In this document: positions 3,001-58,219 of the stretch, in pieces | Layout of the letters: each line of letters opens with the position of its first letter | Position numbering within the stretch: position 1 is the first letter of the stretch | Sequence record: NC_028840.1 | Source: Escherichia phage slur09 | Strand: one strand, 5' to 3' | DNA length: 64,000 nucleotides | The notes under the pieces: generated by a model | Told to the model about the DNA's origin: nothing | Databases searched by the model: none | What the model saw: only the letters and a program-made list of their open reading frames with translations | Program-made: the position numbers and the translations under genes

Positions 3001-3426
3001 AATATTAACTGTGTAACACTTAACCAGTCCTCGGACCGAAGACTTAAAGAGAATATCAATGTTATTTCTGACGCAACAGGAGCTATCAGAAAGATCAATG
3101 GATATACATACACCCTTAAAGATGGAGGTTCCAATAAGGCTGGTGTTATCGCCCAGGAAGTGATGGAAGCATTACCTGAAGCAGTAGGTTCATTTATCCG
3201 GTACGGTGAAGAACTTCCAGGCCCAACCGAAGATGGGAATACTTTGCGTGAAGAAGCATCATATCTTAACGTCGACTATTCCGCGCTTACTGGTCTTCTT
3301 GTTCAGGTGGCACGCGAAACAGATAACCGAGTCACCGAACTAGAATCAGAAGTATCTGATCTTAAAAAGCAACTTGCAGACCTAACTCTAGTAGTTAACT
3401 CTTTGTTAGCAAATAGGGCACAGTAA
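1..3426 (+). CDS. ltf: L-shaped tail fibre protein (pb1-like), 5'-partial, with C-terminal intramolecular chaperone (peptidase S74-like) domain
   Basis: Frame 1 is open from base 1 into the listed ORF 259..3426, so the start lies upstream of the window; N-terminal AAKTSETNA-type repeats; C-terminal SDRRLKENI...GYTYTLKDG...AQEVMEALPEAV motif typical of self-cleaving fibre chaperone domains. Confidence 0.85.
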   Translation, partial: TAAKTSETNANSSKTAAAASASAAKTSETNASASAAAAKTSETNANNSKNAAANSANAAKASETNAKTSETNAAASATKAENVASGMRDSIGLGSSQRECTDISGDPSGYIGFMRIRSSAKGFPSIASGENSITGFISQVDGTPAYAGVFQGWDTFSLYTYRWNPTIGPQWQRHARKNEVDKLVQLNSETQLLNPGDNAKIIITSNKLWGAYDIENRSYIPLAVGQGGTGGRSAAEARNNLQLNRFQRSSDTRTIILSTDVQKDGCYLQVDADGQWGAFNPKIGKWQALAIPQGGTGANDTSTARTNLQVMYEAKTGLDENTNLNDIKGTTAGFYYQPMSANAKPELNYPIQLAGALRVLKDGANVGYSCIQTYYVYNNPKISYSRVYNGGSDTWSDWVRNVSTGRIEEGESTTYVYSDYSPLAPRLQVGTSGLWGCHNGSSWVPLSIGQGGTGATTLQDAKTNLQIPEGGLTKAMLLQAPKGAEDGKYYPVIIDASGIEGNGNLTCPIDIKTAGRASSDPMNSNTFSGYFRCGGWSDTKDIAYGSFITYDKNELGILCLKVSQKDYPQYVAFYIHKSAFPILLQTGYKARVIVPTEDYVIGTNGVKYKFGVSTSTEGNAENSVKNALDFTGGESGFYSNLPFRQGYAYNVALTNDLNFDKNFTFTTPIFLNNGQIKATQSFTAYGTDVSNRSFVSQRLQSEGGQVVDQTELRAANGSGEIVVRDVNNSGNSKWFTFSLDGTMSSYNGIAVTASQNWAIQHNDNVNKFKPIAGSAGSPDGTMVVGGFHAQFSGNYATQFAGRNSSFWARSFEAGVDKGWKRLLTVDDLNSSTNLTVNSLTTISSVKSGSGNLTILGSTSDSSLMNCTLHGYNSAGSSLAWTIGTSASENKMLTIRNLHSEAKVLLNGVDGAIQLKTGTVGGAAAQAITINKDEVYSTVDFAITKGGKRFSIQNSANSELPFAIRVWGSSTRQNVFEVGTSAAYLFYAQKTSQGQLFDVNGNINCVTLNQSSDRRLKENINVISDATGAIRKINGYTYTLKDGGSNKAGVIAQEVMEALPEAVGSFIRYGEELPGPTEDGNTLREEASYLNVDYSALTGLLVQVARETDNRVTELESEVSDLKKQLADLTLVVNSLLANRAQ

Positions 3427-25919: not shown

Positions 25920-26416
25920 AACAATACTCCTGTGTTGGTTAATCGAAATCTTTTCTTTAGGACTATTCAGAAAGAATAGAACAACTATTACTACTATTTA
26001 CGTAAACATCAATCATCATCAAGCAATATGAATAAGTTATCATATCTCAGTGCTGTGCTCTCTTCGCTCATATACAGAATAGAACCTAGGTCATTGGCCG
26101 CTAAGCCGATTCTATTTGTCCTCACTATCCTATTGGTAGGTGACTACTGTACGTGCCGCCATTCGCTGCTCTTTTCGTTCGCACCCCCATATAAAGCTCT
26201 GCCTATATAACGAGCTAAATATGCACGGTTTGGATTTACCTTTCCGAATTCAGGGTACACAGATCACTTAATTGAAGATTAACTAATGCAATATAAACAC
26301 TAGTAATAGTTAAAACAACCCTTAATGGGGCAGCCTAACTGTTCCGTATCGCGGATTGTAAACAAGAAAAATTAGCAAAATCAATTTTTACTAATGTCTC
26401 TCAATTCAATATAAAT

Positions 26417-26445
26417 ATTATATCAAGATTTTGGGCATCCTGCAA
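26417..26445 (-). promoter_or_regulatory. promoter-like element (minus strand), weaker -35 TTGCAG
   Basis: rc TTGCAG-N17-TATAAT in the 620-bp intergenic region. Confidence 0.4.
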
Positions 26446-26539
26446 GTAAAATTTTCCAGATGGTGCTATCATTGGTCTTGAGTACGGATAAAACCGAGCC
26501 AAAATGACTCGGTAATCAGAGTTCAGCTAATAAAAATCA

Positions 26540-26935
26540 TTAGTCATTTAATCCCGGAACATATATCCCAACACGGTTTAATTGTTCTTTAGCTTCTTTG
26601 AGAATATCTGGAGTGTACTCCCAAATATCATCTTCCACCTGTAAAAGATGGGGCGAACAACCATCATCCGGCACACGACATATGGCCAAACCACGTGGAT
26701 GGAACAAAGAGAAGTTTAGGGCAACAATCAATCCCATAGCAGACAATTCATTCCAATCCAATTCCCATCCCCCGGCGTATCCAGACAGGAAAACGCCAAT
26801 GCATGGATCATCTGTTTGCTGCTCAGGAAAAGTGAAGGAGGCTTGTCTTACCCCCCCCCCCAACCAACGTTGTAGCAGCTTCTCCGCACGTTTCACCAAA
26901 CTAGGATCAATCTGACGCCAATATACTTGTTCCAT
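26540..26935 (-). CDS. hypothetical protein, tandem paralog 1; contains an in-frame G11 homopolymer
   Basis: 131 aa; related to ORF 26945..27373 (shared ...CIG...GW.EL...MGL..ALN..LF.P...VPGL pattern). Confidence 0.5.
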   Translation of the reverse strand: MEQVYWRQIDPSLVKRAEKLLQRWLGGGVRQASFTFPEQQTDDPCIGVFLSGYAGGWELDWNELSAMGLIVALNFSLFHPRGLAICRVPDDGCSPHLLQVEDDIWEYTPDILKEAKEQLNRVGIYVPGLND

Positions 26936-26944
26936 TCTGCCTCC

Positions 26945-27373
26945 TTAAGCAGTTAAACCTGGGATCATATATCCGAAACGTCGAAGTTTTTGGATACCAT
27001 CATTCACTTCTTCTGGTGAGTAAGACCAACCGTAACGTTCATTAACTTGAAAACCAGGAGATTCACTAGTTTTATAGTTAACAACAAGGCGATGCTTAGC
27101 AGGCATAAACAGCTTATAGTTTAACGCAAAAACTAAGCCCATTTCGTCTAACTCTTTCCAGCCCACAATCTCTTCAAGACCATCCTCTACCTGCACAATT
27201 AAACCAATACAGGGGGCCTCATCAATATCATCTTTAAAAGCAAAGGAGATTTCGTTATTCTCACACCATATTTTCAAAGAGTTAATAGCCTCATTATATA
27301 GGCTAGCTGGGAGAGTACGCCAAAAGTTAACCAAAATTGGATTAGCTTCTTTAGAGAATACATTATTGAACAT
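26945..27373 (-). CDS. hypothetical protein, tandem paralog 2
   Basis: 142 aa; paralogous to 26540..26935. Confidence 0.5.
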   Translation of the reverse strand: MFNNVFSKEANPILVNFWRTLPASLYNEAINSLKIWCENNEISFAFKDDIDEAPCIGLIVQVEDGLEEIVGWKELDEMGLVFALNYKLFMPAKHRLVVNYKTSESPGFQVNERYGWSYSPEEVNDGIQKLRRFGYMIPGLTA

Positions 27374-49194: not shown

Positions 49195-49383
49195 GTGGAA
49201 TTATACATAGTTTATGTTGTGTTTATTCAAGATAGAGAATACCCTGATGAATATAAACAAGGATATAGGTTAGCCAGAGCTACTTCTGAAGCCCAAGCTA
49301 TGGATAAGGTGGCAGATTATATGATTACAGTAGAAAACGTACACTATATCGACTACCTTGAAGCCTCAAAAGTAATTGACTAA
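49195..49383 (+). CDS. hypothetical small protein (GTG start)
   Basis: ORF-track ORF 49048..49383 overlaps two tRNAs at its 5' end; in-frame GTG after AGGGGA lies downstream of the tRNAs. Confidence 0.3.
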   Translation: MELYIVYVVFIQDREYPDEYKQGYRLARATSEAQAMDKVADYMITVENVHYIDYLEASKVID

Positions 49384-49392
49384 GGAGACTAT

Positions 49393-49578
49393 ATGTCTAA
49401 GTTTCAAGAACTCAAGCAAGAGCTAGAAGAGTGTGCCTGCCCTGAGTGTAGAGGAATTGGTGAAAGTTCTGATGCAGAAGCAGGAGATACTTTTTGCAAT
49501 ATCTGGGTTTGCCCAAATTGCAATGGTACAGGTATTAATCCTAACTGTGGTATTTCCCTAGATATTGAACGAGGATAA
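49393..49578 (+). CDS. hypothetical zinc-ribbon mini-protein
   Basis: 61 aa; CACPEC...CPNC. Confidence 0.45.
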   Translation: MSKFQELKQELEECACPECRGIGESSDAEAGDTFCNIWVCPNCNGTGINPNCGISLDIERG

Positions 49579-49679
49579 TACCTGTGAAACTAAAAGATTA
49601 TTATATTGGTTGGTTTGTGGGACTAGTAGTAGGATTTTCACTAGGCTATAATATGTATCAACTAATAAACTGATTACAT

Positions 49680-49756
49680 GGGGGTGTAATCGAATTGGCA
49701 TAGGTACTGGACTTAAAATTCAGGTTTTGTGGGTTCGAATCCCACCACCCCTACCA
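49680..49756 (+). tRNA. tRNA with Leu anticodon TAA on a short-variable-arm (type I) scaffold
   Basis: Acceptor GGGGGTG/CACCCCT, A73, D-loop AATTGGCAT, anticodon arm CTGGA-CTTAAAA-TTCAG, 5-nt variable loop, T-arm GTGGG-TTCGAAT-CCCAC. Confidence 0.6.
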
Positions 49757-49772
49757 AATTAAGGAAATAAGA

Positions 49773-49943
49773 TGTATAGACATCCACCTCCGCCAACACG
49801 TCGTTCTAGAGAAGTTATTCTCATGGAATTGACTAAAAACTTCAAGGCAACTCTTGAAGATAGAGATCTAGGCACGGATGAAGACATTGATTTTATTTGT
49901 AGACTATTAAAGATGAAACTGGAGAAACAACATGGCTAATCCT
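49773..49943 (+). CDS. hypothetical small protein (56 aa)
   Basis: ATG after AAGGAAATAAG; below ORF-track length cutoff; stop overlaps the next ORF start. Confidence 0.4.
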
Positions 49944-50138
49944 GAAATTACCGCACAACGTTTCATGCTTAAAGGCATGATTGCTGAGGCAGGTATAACT
50001 CAAGAGGTTGCAGATTTTCATAAGCAATTTCTTGACATTATAACTCTAGCTAAAGAGACTGGAGAAAAAGAACACGGAGCAGCAATTATGGCTATATCTC
50101 TTATTAGTCTAGACTTGGCTGAAGAGTCTGGAGTTTAG
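49932..50138 (+). CDS. hypothetical protein
   Basis: ORF track, 68 aa. Confidence 0.45.
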   Translation: MANPEITAQRFMLKGMIAEAGITQEVADFHKQFLDIITLAKETGEKEHGAAIMAISLISLDLAEESGV

Positions 50139-50168
50139 CTCCTCCAAACAGAATTTTTAAAAATGTAC

Positions 50169-50198
50169 TTGCCTTTTGCTTTAAATTTCTGGTATAAT
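50169..50198 (+). promoter_or_regulatory. T5-type promoter (TTGCCT -35)
   Basis: TTGCCT-N18-TATAAT. Confidence 0.5.
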
Positions 50199-50228
50199 AG
50201 TTATATAAATTGATGAAGGAGTTAACGA

Positions 50229-50504
50229 ATGCAAAATCGTGTTATAGCAACTGGTATTGAAAGTGCAATCTGTAAATCCTGGGAAGGCTGGGAAGGTGAG
50301 ATTGAATGGCTTTATTTCTACGATGTAGAACTTCTGCCGGAAGTTAAAACTAAATGTGTTGAAGCTGGCATGGCTCCAGATGCAAAAGCTGATATTGATA
50401 TTTCAATGTCTGAACTTAAAGGTCGTGTAATTACTGTTAGTGATGAGGGTGAAGAAGTTTTCGAACTTCCATTCTCCTTAACTGTCACTCCTAAGTTCGA
50501 CTAA
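50229..50504 (+). CDS. hypothetical protein
   Basis: ORF track, 91 aa. Confidence 0.5.
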   Translation: MQNRVIATGIESAICKSWEGWEGEIEWLYFYDVELLPEVKTKCVEAGMAPDAKADIDISMSELKGRVITVSDEGEEVFELPFSLTVTPKFD

Positions 50505-50527
50505 CTAATACAGCACTGAGCAAGTTC

Positions 50528-50567
50528 TTTAAAATTTGACTTGCTCAGTGCCATAAAACTTGATATA
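50528..50567 (+). terminator. long hairpin (13-bp stem GCACTGAGCAAGT/ACTTGCTCAGTGC) whose 3' arm overlaps the -35 of the next promoter
   Basis: Perfect 13-bp inverted repeat; TTGACT -35 lies inside the 3' arm; TATAAT follows 17-18 bp later. Confidence 0.55.
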
Positions 50568-50634
50568 ATATTTATCTAATTTGGAAACATATTTAAAAGT
50601 GTTTAAATGAGGCTTTTTGAATACTTCTAAATAT

Positions 50635-50722
50635 GGGCGTTTATTCCGTAAGTGGTAGCGGAGGGGATTGTAAATCCCTGGTCATTGCGACTCGAGTGGT
50701 TCGACTCCATTAACGCCCACCA
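50635..50722 (+). tRNA. tRNA-Tyr (anticodon GTA), long variable arm
   Basis: Acceptor GGGCGTT/AACGCCC, A73, anticodon arm GGGGA-TTGTAAA-TCCCT, long variable arm, encoded CCA. Confidence 0.75.
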
Positions 50723-50739
50723 AATTAAAGGTAAAGGAT

Positions 50740-51231
50740 ATGTATATTGATCGGATAATTCAAGAAGCTGCAAATAGGGGTATTATACAGTTGGGTTCAC
50801 CCGCTGATATAAACAAAGATCTAATATTAGAAAGCCTCACATTTGGTACAGCTAACTTTGGTCGCGATAGTAATCGTCGATATAGCTTGAAGTTATCTGC
50901 ACTATCTTTTATCAAGTATAACAAAAGTATTGGAGAAAAATCCAGCTGTGGTTTTATTTACGCAATAACTAACCCAGCTTGGGATAACTATGTAAAAATT
51001 GGTATGTCTTCTGATCCTAAAACAAGATTAGGAAATTACCAAACCTATTCTCCTTTACGTGATTATAAGTTAATACATTGGTCATTTTGGTTTAATGCTA
51101 GAGAAGCGGAGAAAATGCTTCATAATAGCTTTCCTGAACGGCTTAATGAATGGGTAGTGTTAGACAGAGGTGTAGACGAAATACTTTCCGAGTTTAACAA
51201 TCTATCCAATAAGCAATTTAAGTCCTGTTAG
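50740..51231 (+). CDS. T5orf172-domain protein (GIY-YIG-like, putative homing endonuclease family)
   Basis: 163 aa; GFIYAITNPAWDNYVKIGMS...RL.NYQTYSP motif shared with ORF 54257..54730. Confidence 0.6.
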   Translation: MYIDRIIQEAANRGIIQLGSPADINKDLILESLTFGTANFGRDSNRRYSLKLSALSFIKYNKSIGEKSSCGFIYAITNPAWDNYVKIGMSSDPKTRLGNYQTYSPLRDYKLIHWSFWFNAREAEKMLHNSFPERLNEWVVLDRGVDEILSEFNNLSNKQFKSC

Positions 51232-51298
51232 ACAAACTGGTAAAGTCACTACCCTTTCAAGGTAGGATTTGCGGGTTCGATCCCCGCACAGGACGCCA
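51222..51298 (+). tRNA. tRNA-Glu (anticodon TTC)
   Basis: Acceptor GTCCTGT/ACAGGAC, anticodon arm CTACC-CTTTCAA-GGTAG, T-arm GCGGG-TTCGATC-CCCGC; 5' end overlaps the last codons of ORF 50740..51231. Confidence 0.75.
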
Positions 51299-51306
51299 AT
51301 TTCTGC

Positions 51307-51383
51307 ATTCCTAGAGTGTTACTGGACAGCATGTCGGTCTCCAAAACCGTACGGTCTAGGTTCGAGTCCTAGTAGGTTTGCCA
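51307..51383 (+). tRNA. tRNA-Trp-like (anticodon CCA) with two U-U mismatches in the acceptor stem
   Basis: Anticodon arm CGGT-CTCCAAA-ACCG, T-arm CTAGG-TTCGAGT-CCTAG, acceptor ATTCCTA/TAGGTTT pairs 5 of 7. Confidence 0.45.
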
Positions 51384-51389
51384 AAATTT

Positions 51390-51464
51390 GCACCTTTAGC
51401 TGAGATGGATTAGCGCTTGCCTGAAGAGCTTGAGAGGTTCGTTCGATTCGAACAGGGTGCACCA
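51390..51464 (+). tRNA. tRNA-Phe (anticodon GAA)
   Basis: Acceptor GCACCTT/AGGGTGC, anticodon loop CTGAAGA, T-arm GTTCG-TTCGATT-CGAAC; anticodon stem has two U-U mismatches. Confidence 0.6.
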
Positions 51465-51481
51465 ATTTGAAGGAGCTGCTG

Positions 51482-51754
51482 ATGCATCCTGAAAACTTCT
51501 TTATTTACTGCGCTGATAAGTCGCTGAAACGTAGAATTAACAAAGTCTATCATTATCGTGCTAGTCAACAGCCTTATGTATATGCTTTTGACGGTGATCA
51601 CATTCCATTAGAACAATTATCCTGTGATTACATGATATTGAAGAACTTTGATGAGACAAAGATCTCAAGCGTTCATAATCGACAGAATCCATTAACGTGG
51701 AAATATAAGAAGAAAAAGAAAGGCATCAAATTCTTAAAAAATGTAGTTGCTTAG
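51482..51754 (+). CDS. hypothetical protein
   Basis: ATG after AAGGAG RBS (ORF track starts at 51467). Confidence 0.45.
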   Translation: MHPENFFIYCADKSLKRRINKVYHYRASQQPYVYAFDGDHIPLEQLSCDYMILKNFDETKISSVHNRQNPLTWKYKKKKKGIKFLKNVVA

Positions 51755-51775
51755 TTTCCAAAAGTTCTGTATAAT
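51747..51775 (+). promoter_or_regulatory. T5-type promoter
   Basis: TTGCTT-N17-TATAAT. Confidence 0.6.
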
Positions 51776-51804
51776 AATTACATAAATTGAACTGGAGAAG
51801 CAAC

Positions 51805-52029
51805 ATGACAGAACAAGAATTGAATGAACGTAAGCTGGTAATGCTTCGCTTACTAAATATTTTCTCTGGTATGGACGGTGGAATTGACTTTGTTCATCTA
51901 CGTTCTTTCGTAGAAGAAGCCGAAGGCGAATCTATCACTAAAATCCTTAAACACATGGGATTACTTTTAGATGCTGCTAATGTGGCTACTGAATATAAAC
52001 TAGAAGATCTACCGAAGCGTGTTAAATGA
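51805..52029 (+). CDS. hypothetical protein
   Basis: ATG after GGAGAAG (ORF track starts at 51787). Confidence 0.45.
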   Translation: MTEQELNERKLVMLRLLNIFSGMDGGIDFVHLRSFVEEAEGESITKILKHMGLLLDAANVATEYKLEDLPKRVK

Positions 52030-52217
52030 AACGATTAGTTAGATTTAAGTGTTGTGGTTCTGAACATATTTTCACATATCTTCGTGAATTTAAAATGTGT
52101 GATTGTGGTAAATCAGGCTATGACTCAGGAGACGGGTTCTACACCCGTACTCTAGGGAACTTCAATGATCTAGAATTTGAAGATCTCGAAAAACAAGATA
52201 AATCGACCGTTGGCTGA
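52026..52217 (+). CDS. hypothetical zinc-ribbon mini-protein
   Basis: 63 aa; CC...CDC pattern; 3' end overlaps the start of tRNA-Cys. Confidence 0.45.
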   Translation: MKRLVRFKCCGSEHIFTYLREFKMCDCGKSGYDSGDGFYTRTLGNFNDLEFEDLEKQDKSTVG

Positions 52218-52279
52218 ATGGCTTAGGCGAAGGATTGCAAATCCTTTTTATGTGAGTTCAAATCTCATGCGGTCGTCCA
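52204..52279 (+). tRNA. tRNA-Cys (anticodon GCA)
   Basis: Acceptor CGACCGT/GCGGTCG, anticodon arm AAGGA-TTGCAAA-TCCTT, T-arm GTGAG-TTCAAAT-CTCAT, encoded CCA. Confidence 0.75.
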
Positions 52280-52281
52280 AT

Positions 52282-52422
52282 TTGCTGAAAGAATTGTTAA
52301 ATCAATTCAGGCACGCGTAGGAACACTGTCTCCGTAATTGAAAGATGAGGCACGGTTTGGAGAGGTATGCTGCTACACGCTACGGTGCTAACTCCGTCTA
52401 GGTGAAAATCCTAGTCAGCAAT
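52282..52422 (+). ncRNA. tRNA-like RNA (about 141 nt) with 7-bp acceptor stem, D-like arm, T-arm and a roughly 59-nt insertion enclosed by an extended anticodon-type stem
   Basis: Perfect acceptor TTGCTGA/TCAGCAA; T-arm CTAGG-TGAAAAT-CCTAG; D-like hairpin GAATT...AATTC; 9-bp stem GCACGCGTAG/CTACGGTGC enclosing 52321-52379; no encoded CCA. Confidence 0.4.
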
Positions 52423-52431
52423 ATAAATTTA

Positions 52432-52514
52432 GGGTCGTTAGCCAAGCGGTTTGGCGGTGGACTGTTAATCCATGTCGAAAGACAACGTAGGTTCGAATCC
52501 TACACGGCCCGCCA
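52432..52514 (+). tRNA. tRNA with Asn anticodon GTT on a long-variable-arm (type II) scaffold
   Basis: Acceptor GGGTCGT/ACGGCCC, G73, D-arm GCCA/TGGC, anticodon arm GTGGA-CTGTTAA-TCCAT, 13-nt variable arm with GTC-GAAA-GAC hairpin, T-arm GTAGG-TTCGAAT-CCTAC. Confidence 0.6.
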
Positions 52515-52616
52515 AATTCTGTGTAGAGTTAAGTAAACCGGTAGCCAACCAGCTATCATTGCTGACATCGAATTCAGCCACAGATACCATTTTCATTAAT
52601 AACTGAGGAAACAAGC

Positions 52617-52802
52617 ATGTCCAAGAATGTAATTGCACAGTTAGAAGTTCATCGTGATAGCACTATCAACAATATTGAAGTTGAGAAGAAATACATCGAA
52701 GAACTTAAACATGATATACTAGTAAGTCTTAATCGTCTTAATGTACGAAAAGACTTTCTTAAAGAACTTAATGCAGCTATTGAAAAACTCAAAGCTGAGT
52801 AA
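52617..52802 (+). CDS. hypothetical protein
   Basis: ORF track, 61 aa. Confidence 0.45.
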   Translation: MSKNVIAQLEVHRDSTINNIEVEKKYIEELKHDILVSLNRLNVRKDFLKELNAAIEKLKAE

Positions 52803-52811
52803 ATGAATTAT

Positions 52812-52888
52812 GCGACCGGGGCTGGCTTGGTAATGGTACTCCCCTGTCACGGGAGAGAATGTGGGTTCGAATCCCATCGGTCGCGCCA
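52812..52888 (+). tRNA. tRNA-Asp (anticodon GTC)
   Basis: Acceptor GCGACCG/CGGTCGC, anticodon arm CTCCC-CTGTCAC-GGGAG, T-arm GTGGG-TTCGAAT-CCCAT, encoded CCA. Confidence 0.75.
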
Positions 52889-52914
52889 AACTAAACTAGC
52901 ACGAGAAATATGCT

Positions 52915-53262
52915 ATGATTAATGCTAAAGAAGAATTGTTACTTGCCCTAAAGAATACTAATTCTGAAGTTAAGTGTATTAAGATAGAATTCGGTTATTA
53001 TGGGGACAAAGAAGTTTGGGTATTACCCGTAGGTTATACAGAAAAAGATATTGAAGATTTTCTAAATAATCTAGACTTTAAATATGATTCTGGTTTCGGT
53101 GGACAATTGCTTTATGGTAACGTATGGTTTACTGATGGAACTTGGTTAGAACGTGGTGAATATGATGGTTCTGAATGGTGGGAATATAAGACTACACCAG
53201 CAATTCCAGAGGAATGTCGAACAATTAATGGTGAAGTAGATCATACATTACTATTAAATTAA
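52915..53262 (+). CDS. hypothetical protein
   Basis: ORF track, 115 aa. Confidence 0.5.
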   Translation: MINAKEELLLALKNTNSEVKCIKIEFGYYGDKEVWVLPVGYTEKDIEDFLNNLDFKYDSGFGGQLLYGNVWFTDGTWLERGEYDGSEWWEYKTTPAIPEECRTINGEVDHTLLLN

Positions 53263-53384
53263 CAAAATTTCAGTGCAGAACACGGAGCTAGCAATTCGGA
53301 AGTGCCGACTCATGATAGGCTGCCTATGTACTTGCGAAGCGGTCGTGTCCAAGACTCGGACTCTTGCACTGAAAACAATCAAAC

Positions 53385-53505
53385 ATTCTAGCGTGGTTGA
53401 TGGGGAAACCAGCTTGGCTAGGGCAGAAGCTCGTTCGATTCGAGTGAAAGAATGGTTCTCGTAAGTCCGCACAAGTGATAACAGGTTCGAGTCCTGTCTA
53501 GAATG
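53385..53505 (+). ncRNA. tRNA-like RNA (about 121 nt) with a roughly 53-nt insertion in the anticodon arm
   Basis: Perfect 7-bp acceptor ATTCTAG/CTAGAAT; D-arm TGGT/ACCA with GG-containing loop; anticodon-type stem CTTG/CAAG enclosing 53418-53470; T-arm ACAGG-TTCGAGT-CCTGT. Confidence 0.4.
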
Positions 53506-53514
53506 ACACTATAA

Positions 53515-53637
53515 AGTTTACTTATTATGTAGGTTCCGATAGATCGGCGGGTCTATTCTGGCATTTAAGAGAGGTCTCGCAAACTTCTTTGTCAGCCGTG
53601 GGGTTGATAGCCTCCAGGTGGCCTACACAATAAGTAA
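53515..53637 (+). repeat. 17-bp inverted repeat (TTTACTTATTATGTAGG / CCTACACAATAAGTAAA, one mismatch) flanking an 89-bp core
   Basis: Arms at 53515-53531 and 53621-53637 are reverse complements with a single mismatch; no ORF inside. Confidence 0.6.
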
Positions 53638-53654
53638 ATTTATTAAAAATTCAT

Positions 53655-53683
53655 TTGCTATTCTGCTTAATTATCTGTATAAT
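53655..53683 (+). promoter_or_regulatory. T5-type promoter
   Basis: TTGCTA-N17-TATAAT. Confidence 0.6.
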
Positions 53684-53715
53684 ATATTTTATAAAGTGAA
53701 GAGAAGGAAAGCAAA

Positions 53716-53913
53716 ATGAAAAAAGTTTTACTGCTGTCTGTATTCCTACTCACTGGTTGTTTTAAACTTGACTCAACCATTAATAAAGAGTATGAATTTG
53801 CTAAAAATTTCTGTGGCGGAGAGAGTAATATAAAGAATTTCTACATATATAGTACAATTCCTAGTACCGTTTATTGTGTAGACGGACGAATTATTAATAT
53901 TCCTCCACAATAA
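53716..53913 (+). CDS. small lipoprotein (lipobox LLTGC)
   Basis: 65 aa; MKKVLLLSVFLLTGC signal peptide with lipobox Cys. Confidence 0.55.
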   Translation: MKKVLLLSVFLLTGCFKLDSTINKEYEFAKNFCGGESNIKNFYIYSTIPSTVYCVDGRIINIPPQ

Positions 53914-53922
53914 AAGAATTAA

Positions 53923-53998
53923 CAGTGCGTAGCGCAGTTGGTAGCGTGGGAGCCTTGGATGCTTCGGGTCGCAGGTTCGAGTCCTGCCGCACTGACCA
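53923..53998 (+). tRNA. tRNA-Pro (anticodon TGG)
   Basis: Acceptor CAGTGCG/CGCACTG, D-arm GCGC/GCGT, anticodon arm GGAGC-CTTGGAT-GCTTC, T-arm GCAGG-TTCGAGT-CCTGC, encoded CCA. Confidence 0.8.
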
Positions 53999-54004
53999 AA
54001 CAAT

Positions 54005-54082
54005 TGCGGGTTAGATCTCTGGTAGAGATCGCTAGTCTCATAAGCTAGAAAGAGGTAGGTTCGATTCCTGCACCCGCTTCCA
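54005..54082 (+). tRNA. tRNA with CAT anticodon (Met/Ile2/initiator candidate), U1-U72 mismatch
   Basis: Acceptor TGCGGGT/ACCCGCT (first pair U-U), D-arm GATC/GATC, anticodon arm CTAGT-CTCATAA-GCTAG, T-arm GTAGG-TTCGATT-CCTGC. Confidence 0.6.
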
Positions 54083-54102
54083 TTTTAATAGAGGATTTCG
54101 AA

Positions 54103-54267
54103 ATGAAAGTATTTCGATTAGTAGTAAGTGACAAACGTTTAGGTAAGAATACCTCAAAATCCTTACTTGCTCATTATGGAAAAGACGAGAAAGAAGTAAT
54201 GGCGGAGTTTGGGATTAATCACCCTTACTTGAAAGTTCACTCTATTAAGGAAGTTTATGCTTATTAA
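54103..54267 (+). CDS. hypothetical small protein (54 aa)
   Basis: ATG shortly after the tRNA; below ORF-track cutoff; stop overlaps the start of ORF 54257. Confidence 0.35.
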   Translation: MKVFRLVVSDKRLGKNTSKSLLAHYGKDEKEVMAEFGINHPYLKVHSIKEVYAY

Positions 54268-54730
54268 CAAGGTGCTTCAAGCTCTAGATCTTCCAGAGCT
54301 CTTTACTATTACCGACTCCTTAATACATCGGTATATGGAAAAGTATAATGAAATCTCTGGTAAAAAAGGGAAACTAAAATCCTCAGAATTTAAGTTCTGT
54401 TATAGAATGGCAGCATTAAACCTCTTAAAGTATAAGAGGGAGCATAAAATTCCTATAACAGAAGGATTTGTCTATGTAATAGGTAATCCAGCATGGCCTG
54501 GACTATATAAGATAGGCATGACAGTAGATGTGAACGAAAGACTGTCTAGTTATCAAACATATTCGCCTTATCGTGATTACAAGTTATACCATTTCAGATT
54601 CTCCTCAGACAAGAGAAGAACTGAAAAAGCATTACATAACCTTCTGAAAGACTACAAAATATCAGGAGAATGGTTTGAAGTACCTCTGTTAGACGCCTTC
54701 AAACTATTAGTAGAAAATTTGGATTGCTAA
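54257..54730 (+). CDS. T5orf172-domain protein (GIY-YIG-like, putative homing endonuclease family)
   Basis: 157 aa; GFVYVIGNPAWPGLYKIGMT...RLSSYQTYSP motif, paralog of 50740..51231. Confidence 0.6.
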   Translation: MLINKVLQALDLPELFTITDSLIHRYMEKYNEISGKKGKLKSSEFKFCYRMAALNLLKYKREHKIPITEGFVYVIGNPAWPGLYKIGMTVDVNERLSSYQTYSPYRDYKLYHFRFSSDKRRTEKALHNLLKDYKISGEWFEVPLLDAFKLLVENLDC

Positions 54731-54798
54731 CTCAACTGGATAAGAGTACCGGACCTTTAATCCGTCAGTTCTGGGTTCGAATCCCAGGCAATCCACCA
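54721..54798 (+). tRNA. tRNA-Lys (anticodon TTT)
   Basis: Acceptor GGATTGC/GCAATCC, D-arm ACTC/GAGT, anticodon loop CCTTTAA, T-arm CTGGG-TTCGAAT-CCCAG, encoded CCA. Confidence 0.8.
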
Positions 54799-54816
54799 AT
54801 TTCAAGAAAAACTCAG

Positions 54817-54845
54817 TTGCTTGATGCTTAATTTCTTGTTATAAT
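54817..54845 (+). promoter_or_regulatory. T5-type promoter driving a 1.2-kb ORF-free tRNA/ncRNA transcript
   Basis: TTGCTT-N17-TATAAT; no ORF of 60 aa or more until 56023. Confidence 0.6.
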
Positions 54846-55083
54846 ATTTATATAAATTGATGAGGAGAAATCCTCATCATAGTTCACTAAGGTATTAGCT
54901 CGACCTAGGACTGGCTGCCAAAAAGCACGATCCCTTCTACTTGGGAGGAGTTCTAGATTAGTCCACTAGATTCAGTGGCAACTGAGTAGTGTATCGGGTT
55001 TGCGAGATGACGTAGTTCCTTCCGCTCGAAGCGAAGGTGCTGTAGTTACGCCGAGCTAATAGCCTTAGTAAACTAAAGAATTT

Positions 55084-55162
55084 GGGGAATGGGTCTGCAT
55101 GGAGTGGACACCTCGCTTGCACCGAGGACATCAGGACGGTTCGATTCCGTTATTCTCCACCA
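55084..55162 (+). tRNA. tRNA-Ala (anticodon TGC)
   Basis: Acceptor GGGGAAT/ATTCTCC (G3-U70 wobble), anticodon arm CCTCG-CTTGCAC-CGAGG, T-arm GACGG-TTCGATT-CCGTT, encoded CCA. Confidence 0.65.
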
Positions 55163-55167
55163 AATAC

Positions 55168-55244
55168 GCGTGATTGATGGAATTGGCATACATACCGTCC
55201 TTAGAAGTCGGGTTTTGAGGGTTCGAATCCCTTGTCACGCACCA
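55168..55244 (+). tRNA. tRNA with Leu anticodon TAG on a short-variable-arm (type I) scaffold
   Basis: Acceptor GCGTGAT/GTCACGC, A73, D-loop AATTGGCAT, anticodon arm CCGTC-CTTAGAA-GTCGG (one U-U), T-arm GAGGG-TTCGAAT-CCCTT; paralogous to the tRNA at 49680. Confidence 0.6.
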
Positions 55245-55356
55245 AATTTGATGGTCAGAGTAAATTAAACCTACTATCTCGGTTGAGCTGTTTTAATGGG
55301 TTCGAATCCCAGCGAGGCGTAACTGCCTGGTGTGATAGAGGCATCATCTTATTATT

Positions 55357-55447
55357 GGAAGAGCAAATCGAATTGGCGACGAAAACCGCTTGGAAAGTGG
55401 CTGACTGGTAAAACGGCTTGAGAGTTCAAATCTCTCCTCTTCCGCCA
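55357..55447 (+). tRNA. tRNA-Ser (anticodon GGA), long variable arm
   Basis: Acceptor GGAAGAG/CTCTTCC, G73, anticodon arm CCGC-TTGGAAA-GTGG, long variable arm, T-arm GAGAG-TTCAAAT-CTCTC, encoded CCA. Confidence 0.65.
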
Positions 55448-55459
55448 AACAATTTATAT

Positions 55460-55554
55460 GGTAGGTCAATCCAATGGCTGGCGCTGGACTCCGACTTGAA
55501 ATCGGTTGATCGTAGTGATACGGTGTAAGGGTTCGATCCCCTTACCTACCTCCA
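55460..55554 (+). tRNA. tRNA-Ser (anticodon TGA), long variable arm
   Basis: Acceptor GGTAGGT/ACCTACC, anticodon arm CCGA-CTTGAAA-TCGG, long variable arm, T-arm AAGGG-TTCGATC-CCCTT, encoded CCA. Confidence 0.65.
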
Positions 55555-55559
55555 AGTCT

Positions 55560-55691
55560 TGAAGTATGCCGGAATCGGTAGACGGGGCTGCCTAAAAGGT
55601 TTACAGGGAACATCCACTCCTTGCAACATACCTCATAAAGCGGCTGAGATAAATGGTCTATCTCGTGAAGGTTCAAGTCCTTCTGCTTCTT
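55560..55691 (+). ncRNA. tRNA-like RNA (about 132 nt): type II-like scaffold with a roughly 48-nt insertion in the anticodon arm
   Basis: Acceptor TGAAGTA/TGCTTCT (6 of 7 pairs, U1-U72), D-arm CCG-GAATCGGTAGA-CGG, anticodon-type stem GCTGC/GCGGC enclosing 55592-55639, variable hairpin GAGATA/TATCTC, T-arm GAAGG-TTCAAGT-CCTTC; no CCA. Confidence 0.35.
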
Positions 55692-55802
55692 GATACATCT
55701 ATGGCTCAAAGTGTAACGGTGCTATTTGATGCTCTTAGTAAGACTTTCCCGACATGCGTTCGGGAGTAAGCTGCTAAGGCTAGAGTAGAAGAGTTTCTGA
55801 GA

Positions 55803-55925
55803 GCCGCCACAATTGAAAATTCGTACTCGTCTTGAGCTGCGTGCAATAGGAGATAACTTGATTAGTATTCTAGAACATGCTAATTGAGGATGGTTTCGCT
55901 AACCCTGCGAGTTTTCAATTGTGGC
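55803..55925 (+). repeat. 14-bp perfect inverted repeat (GCCACAATTGAAAA / TTTTCAATTGTGGC, extendable to about 18 bp with one mismatch) flanking a 95-bp core; 3' arm overlaps the 5' end of tRNA-His
   Basis: Arms at 55803-55816 and 55912-55925 are exact reverse complements. Confidence 0.55.
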
Positions 55926-55997
55926 TATATCATAATTGGTTAATGATCCTGATTGTGAATCAGGCCTATGTGGATTCGAATTCCACTAGCCACCCCA
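55921..55997 (+). tRNA. tRNA-His (anticodon GTG)
   Basis: Acceptor GTGGCTA/TAGCCAC, anticodon arm CCTGA-TTGTGAA-TCAGG, T-arm GTGGA-TTCGAAT-TCCAC, encoded CCA. Confidence 0.8.
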
Positions 55998-56022
55998 AAT
56001 TAACTTAAATAGGAAATAAAAT

Positions 56023-56220
56023 ATGGCTGATTTCTGCAAACAATGCTCCATTGATATGTGGGGCAGAGATACTGGTGATCTTTCTGGTTTGATTACAGAA
56101 GCTGAGGTCAAAGAAGGTTATGGTGCAGTTGTGATTTGCGAAGGGTGCGGAGTTATTCGAGTAGATCATGAAGGCAAACGTTTAGAAGAACCGGAAAACT
56201 TAGGAGAAACAAATGAGTAA
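56023..56220 (+). CDS. hypothetical zinc-ribbon mini-protein
   Basis: 65 aa; CKQCS...CEGCG. Confidence 0.45.
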   Translation: MADFCKQCSIDMWGRDTGDLSGLITEAEVKEGYGAVVICEGCGVIRVDHEGKRLEEPENLGETNE

Positions 56221-56449
56221 TGCTTTAATTAGTGAAATTATGTTAACACGTCTTGCAGAACTGCAAACTCTTCGAGATGAATCTCAGAATAACTTATCCT
56301 ACCATAAACAAATGGTAGATACTCTTACTACTCGTATTGATACTTACGAGCGTGATATTGCAGCATTACAAGCTCTCTTCTCTGTATCAGCACCAGATAC
56401 GTTAGAACAGCCTGCTGTATCCCAGCCAGTAGAAACAGCGTCTAGTTAA
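56213..56449 (+). CDS. hypothetical protein
   Basis: ORF track, 78 aa. Confidence 0.45.
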   Translation: MSNALISEIMLTRLAELQTLRDESQNNLSYHKQMVDTLTTRIDTYERDIAALQALFSVSAPDTLEQPAVSQPVETASS

Positions 56450-56458
56450 TAGCATTCT

Positions 56459-56534
56459 TGGGATGTAGATCAATTGGCAGATCGTCGGCCCCTGACTCCG
56501 AAGGTTCCTGGTTCGATCCCAGGCACTCCAGCCA
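56459..56534 (+). tRNA. tRNA-Gln (anticodon CTG), non-canonical anticodon arm
   Basis: Acceptor TGGGATG/CACTCCA (one A-C mismatch), D-arm GATC/GATC, anticodon region TCGGC-CCCTGAC-TCCGA (C at position 33), T-arm CCTGG-TTCGATC-CCAGG, encoded CCA. Confidence 0.5.
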
Positions 56535-56540
56535 AATAAT

Positions 56541-56616
56541 TGGAGAGTAGTGTAACGGTTAGCACAACGGCCTTTGACTCCGTTAATGGTAGGTTCGATT
56601 CCTCCTTCTCCAGCCA
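56541..56616 (+). tRNA. tRNA-Gln (anticodon TTG)
   Basis: Acceptor TGGAGAG/TTCTCCA, anticodon arm ACGGC-CTTTGAC-TCCGT, T-loop TTCGATT, encoded CCA. Confidence 0.65.
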
Positions 56617-56624
56617 AATAATAA

Positions 56625-56700
56625 GCGGTTAAGCACACGGGTTGTGTCGCAGGCCTTCCAAGCCTCGCTGAGTAGGGTTCGATTCCCTCTAGCCGCTCCA
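56625..56700 (+). tRNA. tRNA-Gly (anticodon TCC)
   Basis: Acceptor GCGGTTA/TAGCCGC, D-arm CACA/TGTG, anticodon arm AGGC-CTTCCAA-GCCT, T-loop TTCGATT, encoded CCA. Confidence 0.7.
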
Positions 56701-56716
56701 ACTTTAAGGAAACATT

Positions 56717-56968
56717 ATGCACGTTTTTGAGTTTCGTAATAAAAGTACCGATAAACGGGTTATTGTTATTGGAGAAACATACCGAGCATACGAACAAACT
56801 GACGGCTCTGTTATCCTGAATGATGAGAAAGGAGGTTTTAGCTTTTATCCAGAAGAACCTTATGAAGAGTTTCGAAAACAATTTAACCTAGACTGGAGAA
56901 AGCATTTAAACACTGTTGCTTCATCTGTAGTATTGCCAACTACCAGTACTGTACTCTCTAATGGCTGA
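56717..56968 (+). CDS. hypothetical protein
   Basis: ORF track, 83 aa. Confidence 0.45.
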   Translation: MHVFEFRNKSTDKRVIVIGETYRAYEQTDGSVILNDEKGGFSFYPEEPYEEFRKQFNLDWRKHLNTVASSVVLPTTSTVLSNG

Positions 56969-57125
56969 TAACCTAAAAGTCAAGATCGATAAACAAAAGA
57001 AACGTGTAGAAGTAGAGATTGGTGAAGAACGTGTAGCCTTCACCTTTGAATTTCTACAACAAATGGCAATGACAGTTATGACTGATAAGTCCCCTGTTAT
57101 TGAAAAAGAAATCCCGTTGAAATAA
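56961..57125 (+). CDS. hypothetical small protein (54 aa)
   Basis: ATG overlapping the previous stop region; below ORF-track cutoff. Confidence 0.35.
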   Translation: MADNLKVKIDKQKKRVEVEIGEERVAFTFEFLQQMAMTVMTDKSPVIEKEIPLK

Positions 57126-57133
57126 CGGGTTCT

Positions 57134-57220
57134 GCTGGGTTGGCAGAATGGTTGAATGCACCTGATTTGTAATCAGGAGGAGTAATCCCGTTGCAGGTTC
57201 GAATCCTGTGCCCAGCACCA
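57134..57220 (+). tRNA. tRNA with Thr anticodon TGT on a long-variable-arm (type II, Leu-like) scaffold
   Basis: Acceptor GCTGGGT/GCCCAGC (G1-C72, C2-G71), A73, D-arm GCA-GAATGGTTGAA-TGC, anticodon arm CCTGA-TTTGTAA-TCAGG, 15-nt variable arm, T-arm GCAGG-TTCGAAT-CCTGT, encoded CCA. Confidence 0.6.
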
Positions 57221-57234
57221 ATTTAAGGACTATT

Positions 57235-57402
57235 ATGTTTAAATTATTAGTAGTTATCTGGTATAGTCAATCAAATAGAGCGAATACCTCCCACGTTATA
57301 GACTTTAATACTAAAAATGAAGCTGAAAAAGCATATGCTAATTTAATAGAACGTAATAAAGAATCTCGTAGTATAGTTTATGAAGTGACTAAACTTTATT
57401 AA
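57235..57402 (+). CDS. hypothetical small membrane-like protein
   Basis: ATG after AAGGA RBS; ORF-track version 57208..57402 overlaps the preceding tRNA. Confidence 0.45.
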   Translation: MFKLLVVIWYSQSNRANTSHVIDFNTKNEAEKAYANLIERNKESRSIVYEVTKLY

Positions 57403-57410
57403 AAATTCAT

Positions 57411-57439
57411 TTGCTTTCTCTCTTATTTATTGTTATAAT
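57411..57439 (+). promoter_or_regulatory. T5-type promoter
   Basis: TTGCTT-N17-TATAAT. Confidence 0.6.
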
Positions 57440-57469
57440 ATTTATATAAATTAATGAGAGGGAAGCCAA

Positions 57470-57763
57470 ATGAAACGTTATCTTTCTGTTGTGTTCCAAA
57501 CTGGTGGTCAACACTATACCTATGAATTTCCTGGCTCTTGGAAGATCAAAGAAGGTGATCAAGTAGTAGTGTTAACACCGCGTGAGGGTTTCAAGGTAGT
57601 AACGGTTAAGCAAGTATTTCCAAAAGATCATGAACCAGCTAAAGGCATTCGCTATAAGATGATTCATGGTGTAGTTCGTCAAGTACCACGAGCGGAAGTC
57701 GAAATCAAAGTAGATAAAGATGGTAAACTTAAATATACCTCTTGCTTAGACGAGTTGCTATAA
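57470..57763 (+). CDS. hypothetical protein
   Basis: ORF track, 97 aa. Confidence 0.5.
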   Translation: MKRYLSVVFQTGGQHYTYEFPGSWKIKEGDQVVVLTPREGFKVVTVKQVFPKDHEPAKGIRYKMIHGVVRQVPRAEVEIKVDKDGKLKYTSCLDELL

Positions 57764-57969
57764 TGAGGATTACTTTCACAGAAAAGATCATGAGTAATGG
57801 TGTTATGATCATTACCGCATGGGATGGTAATCAGTGGTGTAGTGTTTCAGGTATTAAGCCTGAAGAACAAACACTAGAAAATATCTCAAAGATTAAGCGA
57901 AGAATGGCAGAACGTGCACGACTTCCAGGTGCACCTAGAAATGGCAAACGTTCTGCTGTAAAATGTTAA
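57763..57969 (+). CDS. hypothetical protein
   Basis: ATG overlapping the upstream stop (TAATG); ORF track starts at 57742. Confidence 0.45.
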   Translation: MRITFTEKIMSNGVMIITAWDGNQWCSVSGIKPEEQTLENISKIKRRMAERARLPGAPRNGKRSAVKC

Positions 57970-57970
57970 T

Positions 57971-58047
57971 GCTTCGGTAGCTTAGCGATCTAAAGCACTC
58001 GGCCGATAACCGAGAGATCGGGGGTTTAAATCCCTCCCGGAGTACCA
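57971..58047 (+). tRNA. tRNA-Ile (anticodon GAT)
   Basis: Acceptor GCTTCGG/CCGGAGT (two G-U), D-arm GCTT/AAGC, anticodon arm CTCGG-CCGATAA-CCGAG (C at position 33), T-arm GGGGG-TTTAAAT-CCCTC, encoded CCA. Confidence 0.65.
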
Positions 58048-58143
58048 AATTTAGGAACTAAGACTATGCGTCCAGGAAAGTTTAAAAAAGCTAATTGGTC
58101 TAAAGAGTATAAAGAATACTTACTTAGTCTAGTAAAACATAAT

Positions 58144-58219
58144 AGTTAGTTGGCAGAGTGGTTATGCACCTCCTTCATACGGAGCGACTACAGTGGTTCA
58201 AATCCACTACTAACTACCA
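58144..58219 (+). tRNA. tRNA with CAT anticodon (Met/initiator/Ile2 candidate)
   Basis: Acceptor AGTTAGT/ACTAACT, anticodon arm CTCC-TTCATAC-GGAG, T-arm AGTGG-TTCAAAT-CCACT, encoded CCA. Confidence 0.65.

What the first reader, a model, noticed from the sequence alone, without database searches (positions are those of the whole stretch)
26851..26861. In-frame G11 homopolymer inside one of two tandem paralogs
An 11-nt C run on the plus strand (G11 in the coding strand of ORF 26540..26935) encodes Gly-Gly-Gly. Tracts this long are prone to slipped-strand mispairing, so this may be a phase-variable switch or a sequencing-error hotspot. The neighbouring paralog 26945..27373 lacks it.
Basis: seen in the sequence. 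Interest (0 to 1): 0.4.

Follow-up and report, generated by a model that had tools for sequence, protein, structure and literature searches.

The report
Strain-specific G11 run, T5-like phage gene
One T5-like coliphage (slur09) carries an 11-G run that grew, in frame, from a 5-G run kept by essentially all of its more than 230 sequenced relatives; it is most likely a recent replication-slippage accident, not an evolved on/off switch.

Summary
There is a C11 run at 26851-26861, which is G11 on the coding strand. It lies at codons 25-29 of ORF 26540-26935(-) and encodes Leu-Gly-Gly-Gly-Val.

The window is Escherichia phage slur09, a Tequintavirus. The ORF is the homologue of T5.107, and its upstream neighbour is a true paralogue, the T5.106 homologue. 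Both are DUF7415 proteins.

The run is the only homopolymer of 7 or more bases in 64 kb, in a genome that otherwise caps runs at A6/T6 and G5/C5. Relatives carry G5 at this site:
- 36 of 37 loci read directly have G5.
- None of 210 fully covered GenBank records has G7 or longer.
- Two sister records, Kenya-K38 and K45, have a frameshifting G6.

So slur09 has a private +6 expansion. It adds two glycines to a loop between a helix and a strand in a confident model. The gene is under purifying selection (dN/dS 0.05-0.22). Any change of one or two bases would truncate it at 28-37 residues.

The anatomy of a switch is therefore present, but nothing shows an evolved, conserved phase-variable locus. 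A sequencing artefact is less likely but cannot be excluded without the reads. This is an ordinary, low-interest finding.

The parts
26851..26861 (-). G11 homopolymer (C11 on the + strand), covering codons 25-29 (L-G-G-G-V) of the T5.107-like gene. It equals the family-wide G5 run plus six G.
26540..26935 (-). SLUR09_00095, a 131-aa DUF7415 protein and the homologue of T5.107. It is the last gene of its transcription unit.
   Evidence: Exact match to CUR48981.1/YP_009202141.1. Pfam PF24187 at 99 bits against a cut-off of 27. phrog_2502. T5 annotation. dN/dS 0.05-0.22. AF2 model with pLDDT 91.
26945..27373 (-). Upstream tandem paralogue, 142 aa, DUF7415, the homologue of T5.106. It has no homopolymer.
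26489..26513 (-). Hairpin followed by a T-run (ACCGAGTCATTTTGGCTCGGTTTTAT). It is identical to the terminator annotated after T5.107 in phage T5, so a frameshift in the gene has no downstream gene in the operon to affect.
   Evidence: Alignment. T5 annotation. The consensus scan missed it because the loop is 9 nt.

Best explanation
The G11 run is a real mutation private to phage slur09. A G5 run (TTG GGG GTA, Leu-Gly-Val) is conserved across Tequintavirus. In slur09 it has been lengthened by six G through slipped-strand mispairing during replication, probably in steps.

The gene is under purifying selection, so only lengths that keep the frame (G8, G11) would persist. That explains why the one long allele seen is in frame. 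The two extra glycines sit in the turn between the N-terminal helix and the first strand of the DUF7415 protein and are probably tolerated.

As a by-product, the tract is now long enough to slip often. A slur09 lysate should therefore contain a minority of G10 and G12 genomes in which the protein stops after 28 or 37 residues. This is de facto hypermutability of one accessory gene, not an evolved switch.

Shown:
- the tract and its uniqueness among relatives;
- its derivation from G5;
- the consequences of each tract length for the reading frame;
- its position in a loop of the model;
- purifying selection on the gene.

Inferred:
- slippage as the mechanism;
- tolerance of the insertion;
- instability within the phage population.
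For: - The tract differs from relatives only by six extra G, and the flanks are identical.
- G5 is present in 36 of 37 loci read directly.
- No fully covered GenBank record (210) is more than 90% identical to a 57-nt G11 probe. That excludes G7 or longer. Only Kenya-K38 and K45 carry G6.
- The RWLG[VA] motif is invariant in homologues down to 61% identity.
- G10 gives a 28-aa product and G12 a 37-aa product, while G5, G8, G11 and G14 are in frame.
- In the AF2 model (pLDDT 91), residues 26-28 lie between helix 11-25 and strand 29-35.
- dN/dS against five relatives is 0.05-0.22.
- The C6 insertion is the only homopolymer indel in 25 kb compared with phage MET_P1_100_107.
- The genome was sequenced on a MiSeq at 2x250 and reads were remapped to correct the assembly.
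- In C. jejuni reporter constructs, changing a G8 tract to G11 raised mutability 10-fold and shifted the pattern toward deletions (PMC3401435).
Against: - No read-level data could be inspected, so the tract length in the phage stock is unverified.
- A net +6 change from a run as short as G5 is unusual for slippage. A stepwise route must pass through out-of-frame intermediates.
- The genome is a draft assembled without read error correction.
- The allele is seen in one record only, and no contig encoding it could be retrieved.
Confidence: 0.62

Rival explanations
1. Sequencing, library or assembly artefact. The phage really has G5 (or some other length), and the G11 in the deposited draft comes from PCR stutter in the Nextera XT library, from miscalls in a G-rich homopolymer, or from the assembler's choice of path.
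For: - The allele is unique among more than 230 relatives.
- It is a draft genome made with SPAdes 'only-assembler', and Nextera XT includes PCR.
- The rest of the genome has no run longer than 6, so this is the one place where such an error could occur.
Against: - The MiSeq uses four-colour chemistry, so the two-colour poly-G artefact does not apply (established knowledge).
- Illumina and PCR homopolymer errors are mainly plus or minus 1 on runs that are already long. A G5 template should not give a +6 consensus.
- Both flanks continue correctly and the frame is kept.
- Reads were remapped to correct the assembly.
- No other homopolymer indel appears in 25 kb.
- 'Logan', an independent assembly of public reads, is listed as a source of the exact 131-aa protein. 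The contig could not be retrieved.
Confidence: 0.2
2. A true contingency locus. slur09 uses the G11 tract to switch the DUF7415 protein on and off at high frequency as bet-hedging, for example against a host defence that senses or needs this protein.
For: - The anatomy fits. The tract is 11 long and lies in the first fifth of the ORF, with immediate stops in both other frames. The gene is the last in its operon, so there are no polar effects.
- A G6 OFF allele exists in Kenya-K38 and K45.
- Phage contingency loci have been claimed for A-runs in T2 and T4 (bioRxiv 10.1101/2025.10.21.683753).
Against: - No long tract occurs in any relative.
- The family purges homopolymers rather than keeping them.
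- The gene is under purifying selection.
- No phenotype or function is known.
- No population data are available.
Confidence: 0.1
3. A recoding or regulatory element. The run would promote transcriptional slippage or ribosomal frameshifting to make a second product, or it would strengthen an mRNA hairpin that tunes expression.
For: - The G-run pairs with the downstream CCUCCUU.
- The predicted local hairpin strengthens from -20.7 kcal/mol with G5 to -26.6 kcal/mol with G11.
- The consensus scan flagged it as terminator-like.
Against: - Both alternative frames stop within 0-9 codons, so no second product is available.
- The terminator-like count equals the shuffle expectation, 2 against 1.9.
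- The long tract is not conserved.
- The z-scores of both folds are modest, -2.2 and -2.6.
Confidence: 0.03

Closest known systems
PolyG/C phase-variable (contingency) genes of Campylobacter jejuni (Bayliss et al. 2012, PMC3401435)
   Same: Both are in-ORF G/C homopolymers of 8-11 bases in which a change of one base switches the reading frame. In that work a G11 tract was 10-fold more mutable than G8 and biased toward deletions.
   Different: The C. jejuni tracts have a modal length of nine across genomes, occur at many loci, and have measured switching rates and phenotypes. Here a single isolate has the long tract and all relatives have G5. Nothing has been measured.
Phage contingency loci proposed for T2 agt and T4 rIIA (Gomez, Barrick and Waters 2025, bioRxiv 10.1101/2025.10.21.683753)
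   Same: Both are homopolymers inside a coliphage ORF whose one-base slippage inactivates and restores a non-essential gene.
   Different: Those are A-runs of 6-9 bases in the wild-type reference genomes. They have demonstrated reversion rates and defence-related trade-offs. Here the run is G11, it is private to one isolate, and the gene has no known function or phenotype.
Hypermutable polyG tracts of Campylobacter phages (known to me from Sørensen et al. 2021, Cell Reports; the phrase is cited in papers listed but that paper was not read here)
   Same: A polyG run inside a phage protein-coding gene.
   Different: From memory, those tracts recur across a phage genus in receptor-binding genes and vary within lysates. 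Neither recurrence nor within-lysate variation is shown here.
T5.107 / T5.106 (DUF7415, PF24187; phrog_2502)
   Same: The gene carrying the tract matches PF24187 at 99 bits, is about 94% identical to T5.107, and has the same neighbours: Sir2, HAD_SAK_2, the two DUF7415 genes, a terminator, then the origin-binding helicase.
   Different: Only the two extra glycines and a few substitutions, for example E56G.

Membership tests
SSR-mediated phase-variable (contingency) locus | Homopolymer long enough to be hypermutable (about 7-8 or more G/C) | tested here: met
   The run is eleven G.
SSR-mediated phase-variable (contingency) locus | Tract placed so that out-of-frame lengths abolish the product | tested here: met
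   The tract lies at codons 25-29 of 131. G10 gives 28 aa and G12 gives 37 aa.
SSR-mediated phase-variable (contingency) locus | Long tract maintained, with varying ON and OFF lengths, among related strains | tested here: not met
   36 of 37 loci read directly have G5 and one has G6. None of 210 fully covered GenBank records has G7 or longer.
SSR-mediated phase-variable (contingency) locus | Length heterogeneity within one population, and reversible high-rate switching | not testable with these tools
   Raw reads exist in the SRA (PMC5557969) but cannot be read here.
SSR-mediated phase-variable (contingency) locus | Gene whose ON and OFF states trade off under fluctuating selection | not testable with these tools
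   Function is unknown. There were no hits in PDB, PADLOC, NCBIfam or the literature.
DUF7415 (Pfam PF24187) | Score above the Pfam gathering threshold | tested here: met
   99 bits and 120.8 bits for the two paralogues, against a cut-off of 27.
Programmed frameshift / transcriptional-slippage recoding site | Slippery run conserved among relatives, with an extended ORF in the alternative frame | tested here: not met
   The long run is private to slur09. The alternative frames stop after 0-9 codons.
Platform or assembly artefact | Other homopolymer-length errors or broken ORFs in the same assembly | tested here: not met
   No other homopolymer indel in 25 kb against a relative 96.5% identical overall. 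The platform was a MiSeq and reads were remapped.
Platform or assembly artefact | Read support that disagrees with the consensus | not testable with these tools

The most novel reading that the evidence does not exclude
slur09 has recently acquired a working contingency locus. The G11 tract would toggle a conserved DUF7415 accessory protein, possibly linked to nucleotide metabolism, at rates of about 1e-3 or higher per replication. That would let a T5-like phage hedge against a host factor or defence that acts through this protein. It would be the first polyG switch described in Demerecviridae, and it would give a handle on the function of DUF7415.
Probability: 0.1. Interest if true: 0.5.

Novelty: new member of a known kind. 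Interest (0 to 1): 0.2.

Why it matters
If the tract is real, slur09 stocks are predicted to be a mixture of phages with and without a functional T5.107-like protein. That would be a natural near-isogenic pair for finding out what DUF7415 proteins do.

It also matters for anyone using the slur09 RefSeq protein, since its GGG insertion is atypical of the family.

More generally, it shows how a conserved short run can grow into a hypermutable tract in a genome that otherwise avoids homopolymers. Beyond that, it is an ordinary strain-specific indel.

Tried and rejected
- Exact-protein lookup of the G11 allele found no contig on record.
- A lookup with the neighbouring paralogue returned only assemblies in which the adjacent DUF7415 gene is 129-130 aa. 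Six of the eight matched the G5 pattern when read, and two did not match the pattern used. None was the slur09 run.
- Pattern scans of GTDB genome contigs and of E. coli complete genomes found nothing.
- One extra IMG/VR hit, L032, was a chance match through the 20-nt gap.
- PADLOC and NCBIfam gave nothing for either paralogue.
- Literature searches for DUF7415, T5.106/T5.107 and Tequintavirus with homopolymer found nothing relevant.
- Gene conversion from the paralogue was rejected as a source, because the paralogue has no G-run at that position.
- The terminator-like call made by the G-run was treated as chance, because the count equals the shuffle expectation.

Full report
**Observation**

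The + strand carries exactly eleven C at 26851-26861. On the coding (-) strand this reads CGT TGG TTG GGG GGG GGG GTA AGA, which is R-W-L-G-G-G-V-R. It lies inside the 131-aa ORF 26540-26935(-).

A first-order Markov model of the window predicts about 0.002 G or C runs of this length. The run is also the only homopolymer of 7 or more bases of any kind in the 64 kb. The next longest runs are A6/T6 and G5/C5, although about 15 A-runs and 12 T-runs of 7 or more are expected.

**Identity of the locus**

The 131-aa product is an exact match to CUR48981.1/YP_009202141.1, which is SLUR09_00095 of Escherichia phage slur09, a 111,751-bp genome. DNA similarity places the window in Tequintavirus.

slur09 was isolated on E. 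coli MG1655 from cattle slurry. It was sequenced with Nextera XT on a MiSeq (2x250), assembled with SPAdes 'only-assembler', and corrected by remapping reads. It was released as a draft (PMC4698387).

The ORF is the homologue of T5.107, and the upstream ORF 26945-27373(-) is the homologue of T5.106.
- The two are paralogues, with 32% identity and E = 3e-19.
- Both match Pfam DUF7415 (99 and 121 bits, cut-off 27) and phrog_2502.
- The gene order is Sir2, small ORFs, HAD_SAK_2, DUF7415, DUF7415, terminator, then the 929-aa origin-binding helicase. This order is conserved in T5 and in independent assemblies.
- The hairpin and T-run that T5 annotates as a terminator are identical in the window at 26489-26513(-). 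The tract-bearing gene therefore ends its operon.

**Tract length in relatives**

Alignments show that relatives differ at this site only by lacking six G. They read TTG GGG GTA (L-G-V), and the flanks are identical.
- Gapped pattern scans allowing tracts up to about 25 G returned 19 genuine IMG/VR matches and 5 metagenome contigs, all G5. One further hit was a chance match.
- Of 37 loci read directly, 36 have G5 and one has G6.
- A 57-nt probe centred on the tract matched 213 GenBank phage records. Of these, 210 are covered in full and all of them are below 90% identity. That excludes any tract of 7 or more.
- Rows sampled from the top and across the whole ranking all span 51 nt (G5), apart from one 50-nt row whose alignment stops one base short of the probe's end and Kenya-K45, which spans 52 nt.
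- A probe built from the G6 allele matched perfectly only Kenya-K38 and Kenya-K45, two sister records from one study. Their gene is frameshifted and annotated as truncated.
- At protein level the motif RWLG[VA] is invariant down to 61% identity, and slur09 alone has GGG.

The long tract is therefore private to slur09, and it derives from a G5 run that is conserved across the family.

**Consequences for the gene and protein**

- Editing the tract in silico shows that G5, G8, G11 and G14 are in frame.
- One base fewer runs straight into TAA and gives a 28-aa product. One base more gives 37 aa.
- The gene is under purifying selection, with dN/dS of 0.05-0.22 against five relatives. It is intact in nearly all relatives.
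- The exceptions are the G6 allele and a metagenome contig with a 1-nt deletion elsewhere in the gene.
- An AlphaFold2 model built from 23 sequences is confident (pLDDT 91.1, pTM 0.85). It places residues 26-28 in the turn between helix 11-25 and strand 29-35. A two-glycine insertion there is plausibly tolerated.

**Function of the protein**

Function remains unknown.
- There was no fold match in the PDB, and BFVD returned only DUF7415 proteins of T5-like and T4-like phages.
- PADLOC, NCBIfam and the literature gave nothing.
- An exhaustive profile search found 159 representative clusters. The conserved core maps to residues about 57-110, so the N-terminal helix that carries the tract is specific to a subfamily.
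- In a few proteins the core is fused to thymidylate kinase or to dATP/dGTP pyrophosphohydrolase. This hints at a role in nucleotide metabolism, which fits the neighbourhood: nrdD, nrdAB, dhfr and thyA lie nearby.

**Real or artefact?**

Against an artefact:
- The MiSeq uses four-colour chemistry, so the two-colour poly-G artefact does not apply (established knowledge).
- The change is +6 and in frame, with correct flanks.
- Reads were remapped by the authors.
- A 25-kb comparison with a relative 96.5% identical overall shows no other homopolymer indel.
- 'Logan' is listed as a source of the exact protein. The contig could not be retrieved, so this point is weak.

For an artefact:
- The allele is unique.
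- The genome is a draft made from a PCR-based library.
- This is the only place in the genome where homopolymer error could arise at all.

I put the artefact reading at about 0.2.

**Mechanism**

The most likely history is slipped-strand mispairing that lengthened G5. Purifying selection would then filter out the out-of-frame lengths, so that an in-frame long allele is the one observed.

Once a tract reaches 8-11 G, slippage becomes far more frequent. In C. jejuni reporters, G11 was 10-fold more mutable than G8 and biased toward deletions (PMC3401435). Slippage at A-runs in T2 and T4 gives read-level variant frequencies near 1e-4 to 1e-3 (bioRxiv 10.1101/2025.10.21.683753).

slur09 lysates should therefore contain frameshifted, protein-null variants, mostly G10. 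That is the behaviour of a contingency locus. Membership of that class fails on a tested criterion, because the long tract is neither conserved nor variable among relatives. The remaining criteria, within-population heterogeneity and a phenotype, cannot be tested here.

A recoding role is unlikely, because both alternative frames stop at once. The G-run does pair with the downstream CCUCCUU. The expansion strengthens the predicted local mRNA hairpin from -20.7 to -26.6 kcal/mol, but both z-scores are modest and the effect is unproven.

**Verdict**

It is a new, single-isolate example of a known kind of feature and is of low general interest. Inspecting the public slur09 reads would settle it.

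Noticed in passing
window 1-64000; also loci L001-L028: Homopolymers appear to be capped. The window has no A or T run longer than 6, although a first-order Markov model expects about 15 A-runs and 12 T-runs of 7 or more. Apart from the tract, it has no G or C run longer than 5. In 214 kb of related T5-like loci (partly overlapping) the longest G/C run is 6 and the longest A/T run is 7. This suggests family-wide selection against slippage-prone runs.
   Followed up: partly
L021 676-681 (Salmonella phage Kenya-K38, OQ291035.1; the same in Kenya-K45, OQ291061.1): A G6 allele at the same site frameshifts the T5.107 homologue, and the record annotates a truncated CDS from an alternative start. It is either a natural null allele or a one-base sequencing error shared by two sister records.
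   Followed up: partly
L026 about 3240-3250 (metagenome contig SKEH01000150.1): A 1-nt deletion (GGAGAAG to GGA-AAG) frameshifts the same gene upstream of the G5 run. This is a second independent disrupted allele, or an assembly error.
   Followed up: partly
P0010 (Escherichia phage OSYSP, 132 aa), aligned to window residues about 54-58: An in-frame two-residue duplication (YAREWEWELDW against YAREWELDW) occurs in the variable middle of the same protein. It is another tolerated, slippage-type in-frame indel.
   Followed up: no
window 26769-26773 (- strand): Within the close relatives (92% identity or more), only slur09 has Gly in place of Glu at residue 56 (GGGGAA to GGGGGA); more distant homologues vary at this position. 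The change creates a second G5 run 80 nt downstream of the tract in the same gene.
   Followed up: no
P0088, P0132, P0136 (hits of the profile search): The DUF7415 core is fused to thymidylate kinase (PF02223) in one protein and to dATP/dGTP pyrophosphohydrolase (PF04447) in two. This is a lead that the domain acts in nucleotide metabolism.
   Followed up: partly
window 25920-26539: About 620 nt without a convincing ORF lie between the DUF7415 gene and the 929-aa origin-binding-like helicase. T5 annotates a terminator and a promoter there. There was no Rfam hit. Some relatives carry an HNH endonuclease gene in this gap (L035 and L037).
   Followed up: partly
window 26815-26880 (- strand): The predicted mRNA hairpin pairs the G-run with the downstream CCUCCUU, inside an outer GCUGCU/AGCAGC stem. 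Its free energy is -20.7 kcal/mol with G5 and -26.6 kcal/mol with G11. The consensus scan also flagged it as terminator-like.
   Followed up: partly
public records listed: Annotation of the two DUF7415 genes and their neighbour is inconsistent. Names include 'tail tube protein', 'exonuclease' and 'Phage exonuclease (ACLAME 70)'. In RefSeq T5 the HAD_SAK_2 gene T5.105 is labelled 'Sir2'. None of these names is supported by the Pfam results.
   Followed up: no
window 44817-58216 (+ strand): A cluster of 21 tRNA genes, which is typical of T5-like phages.
   Followed up: no
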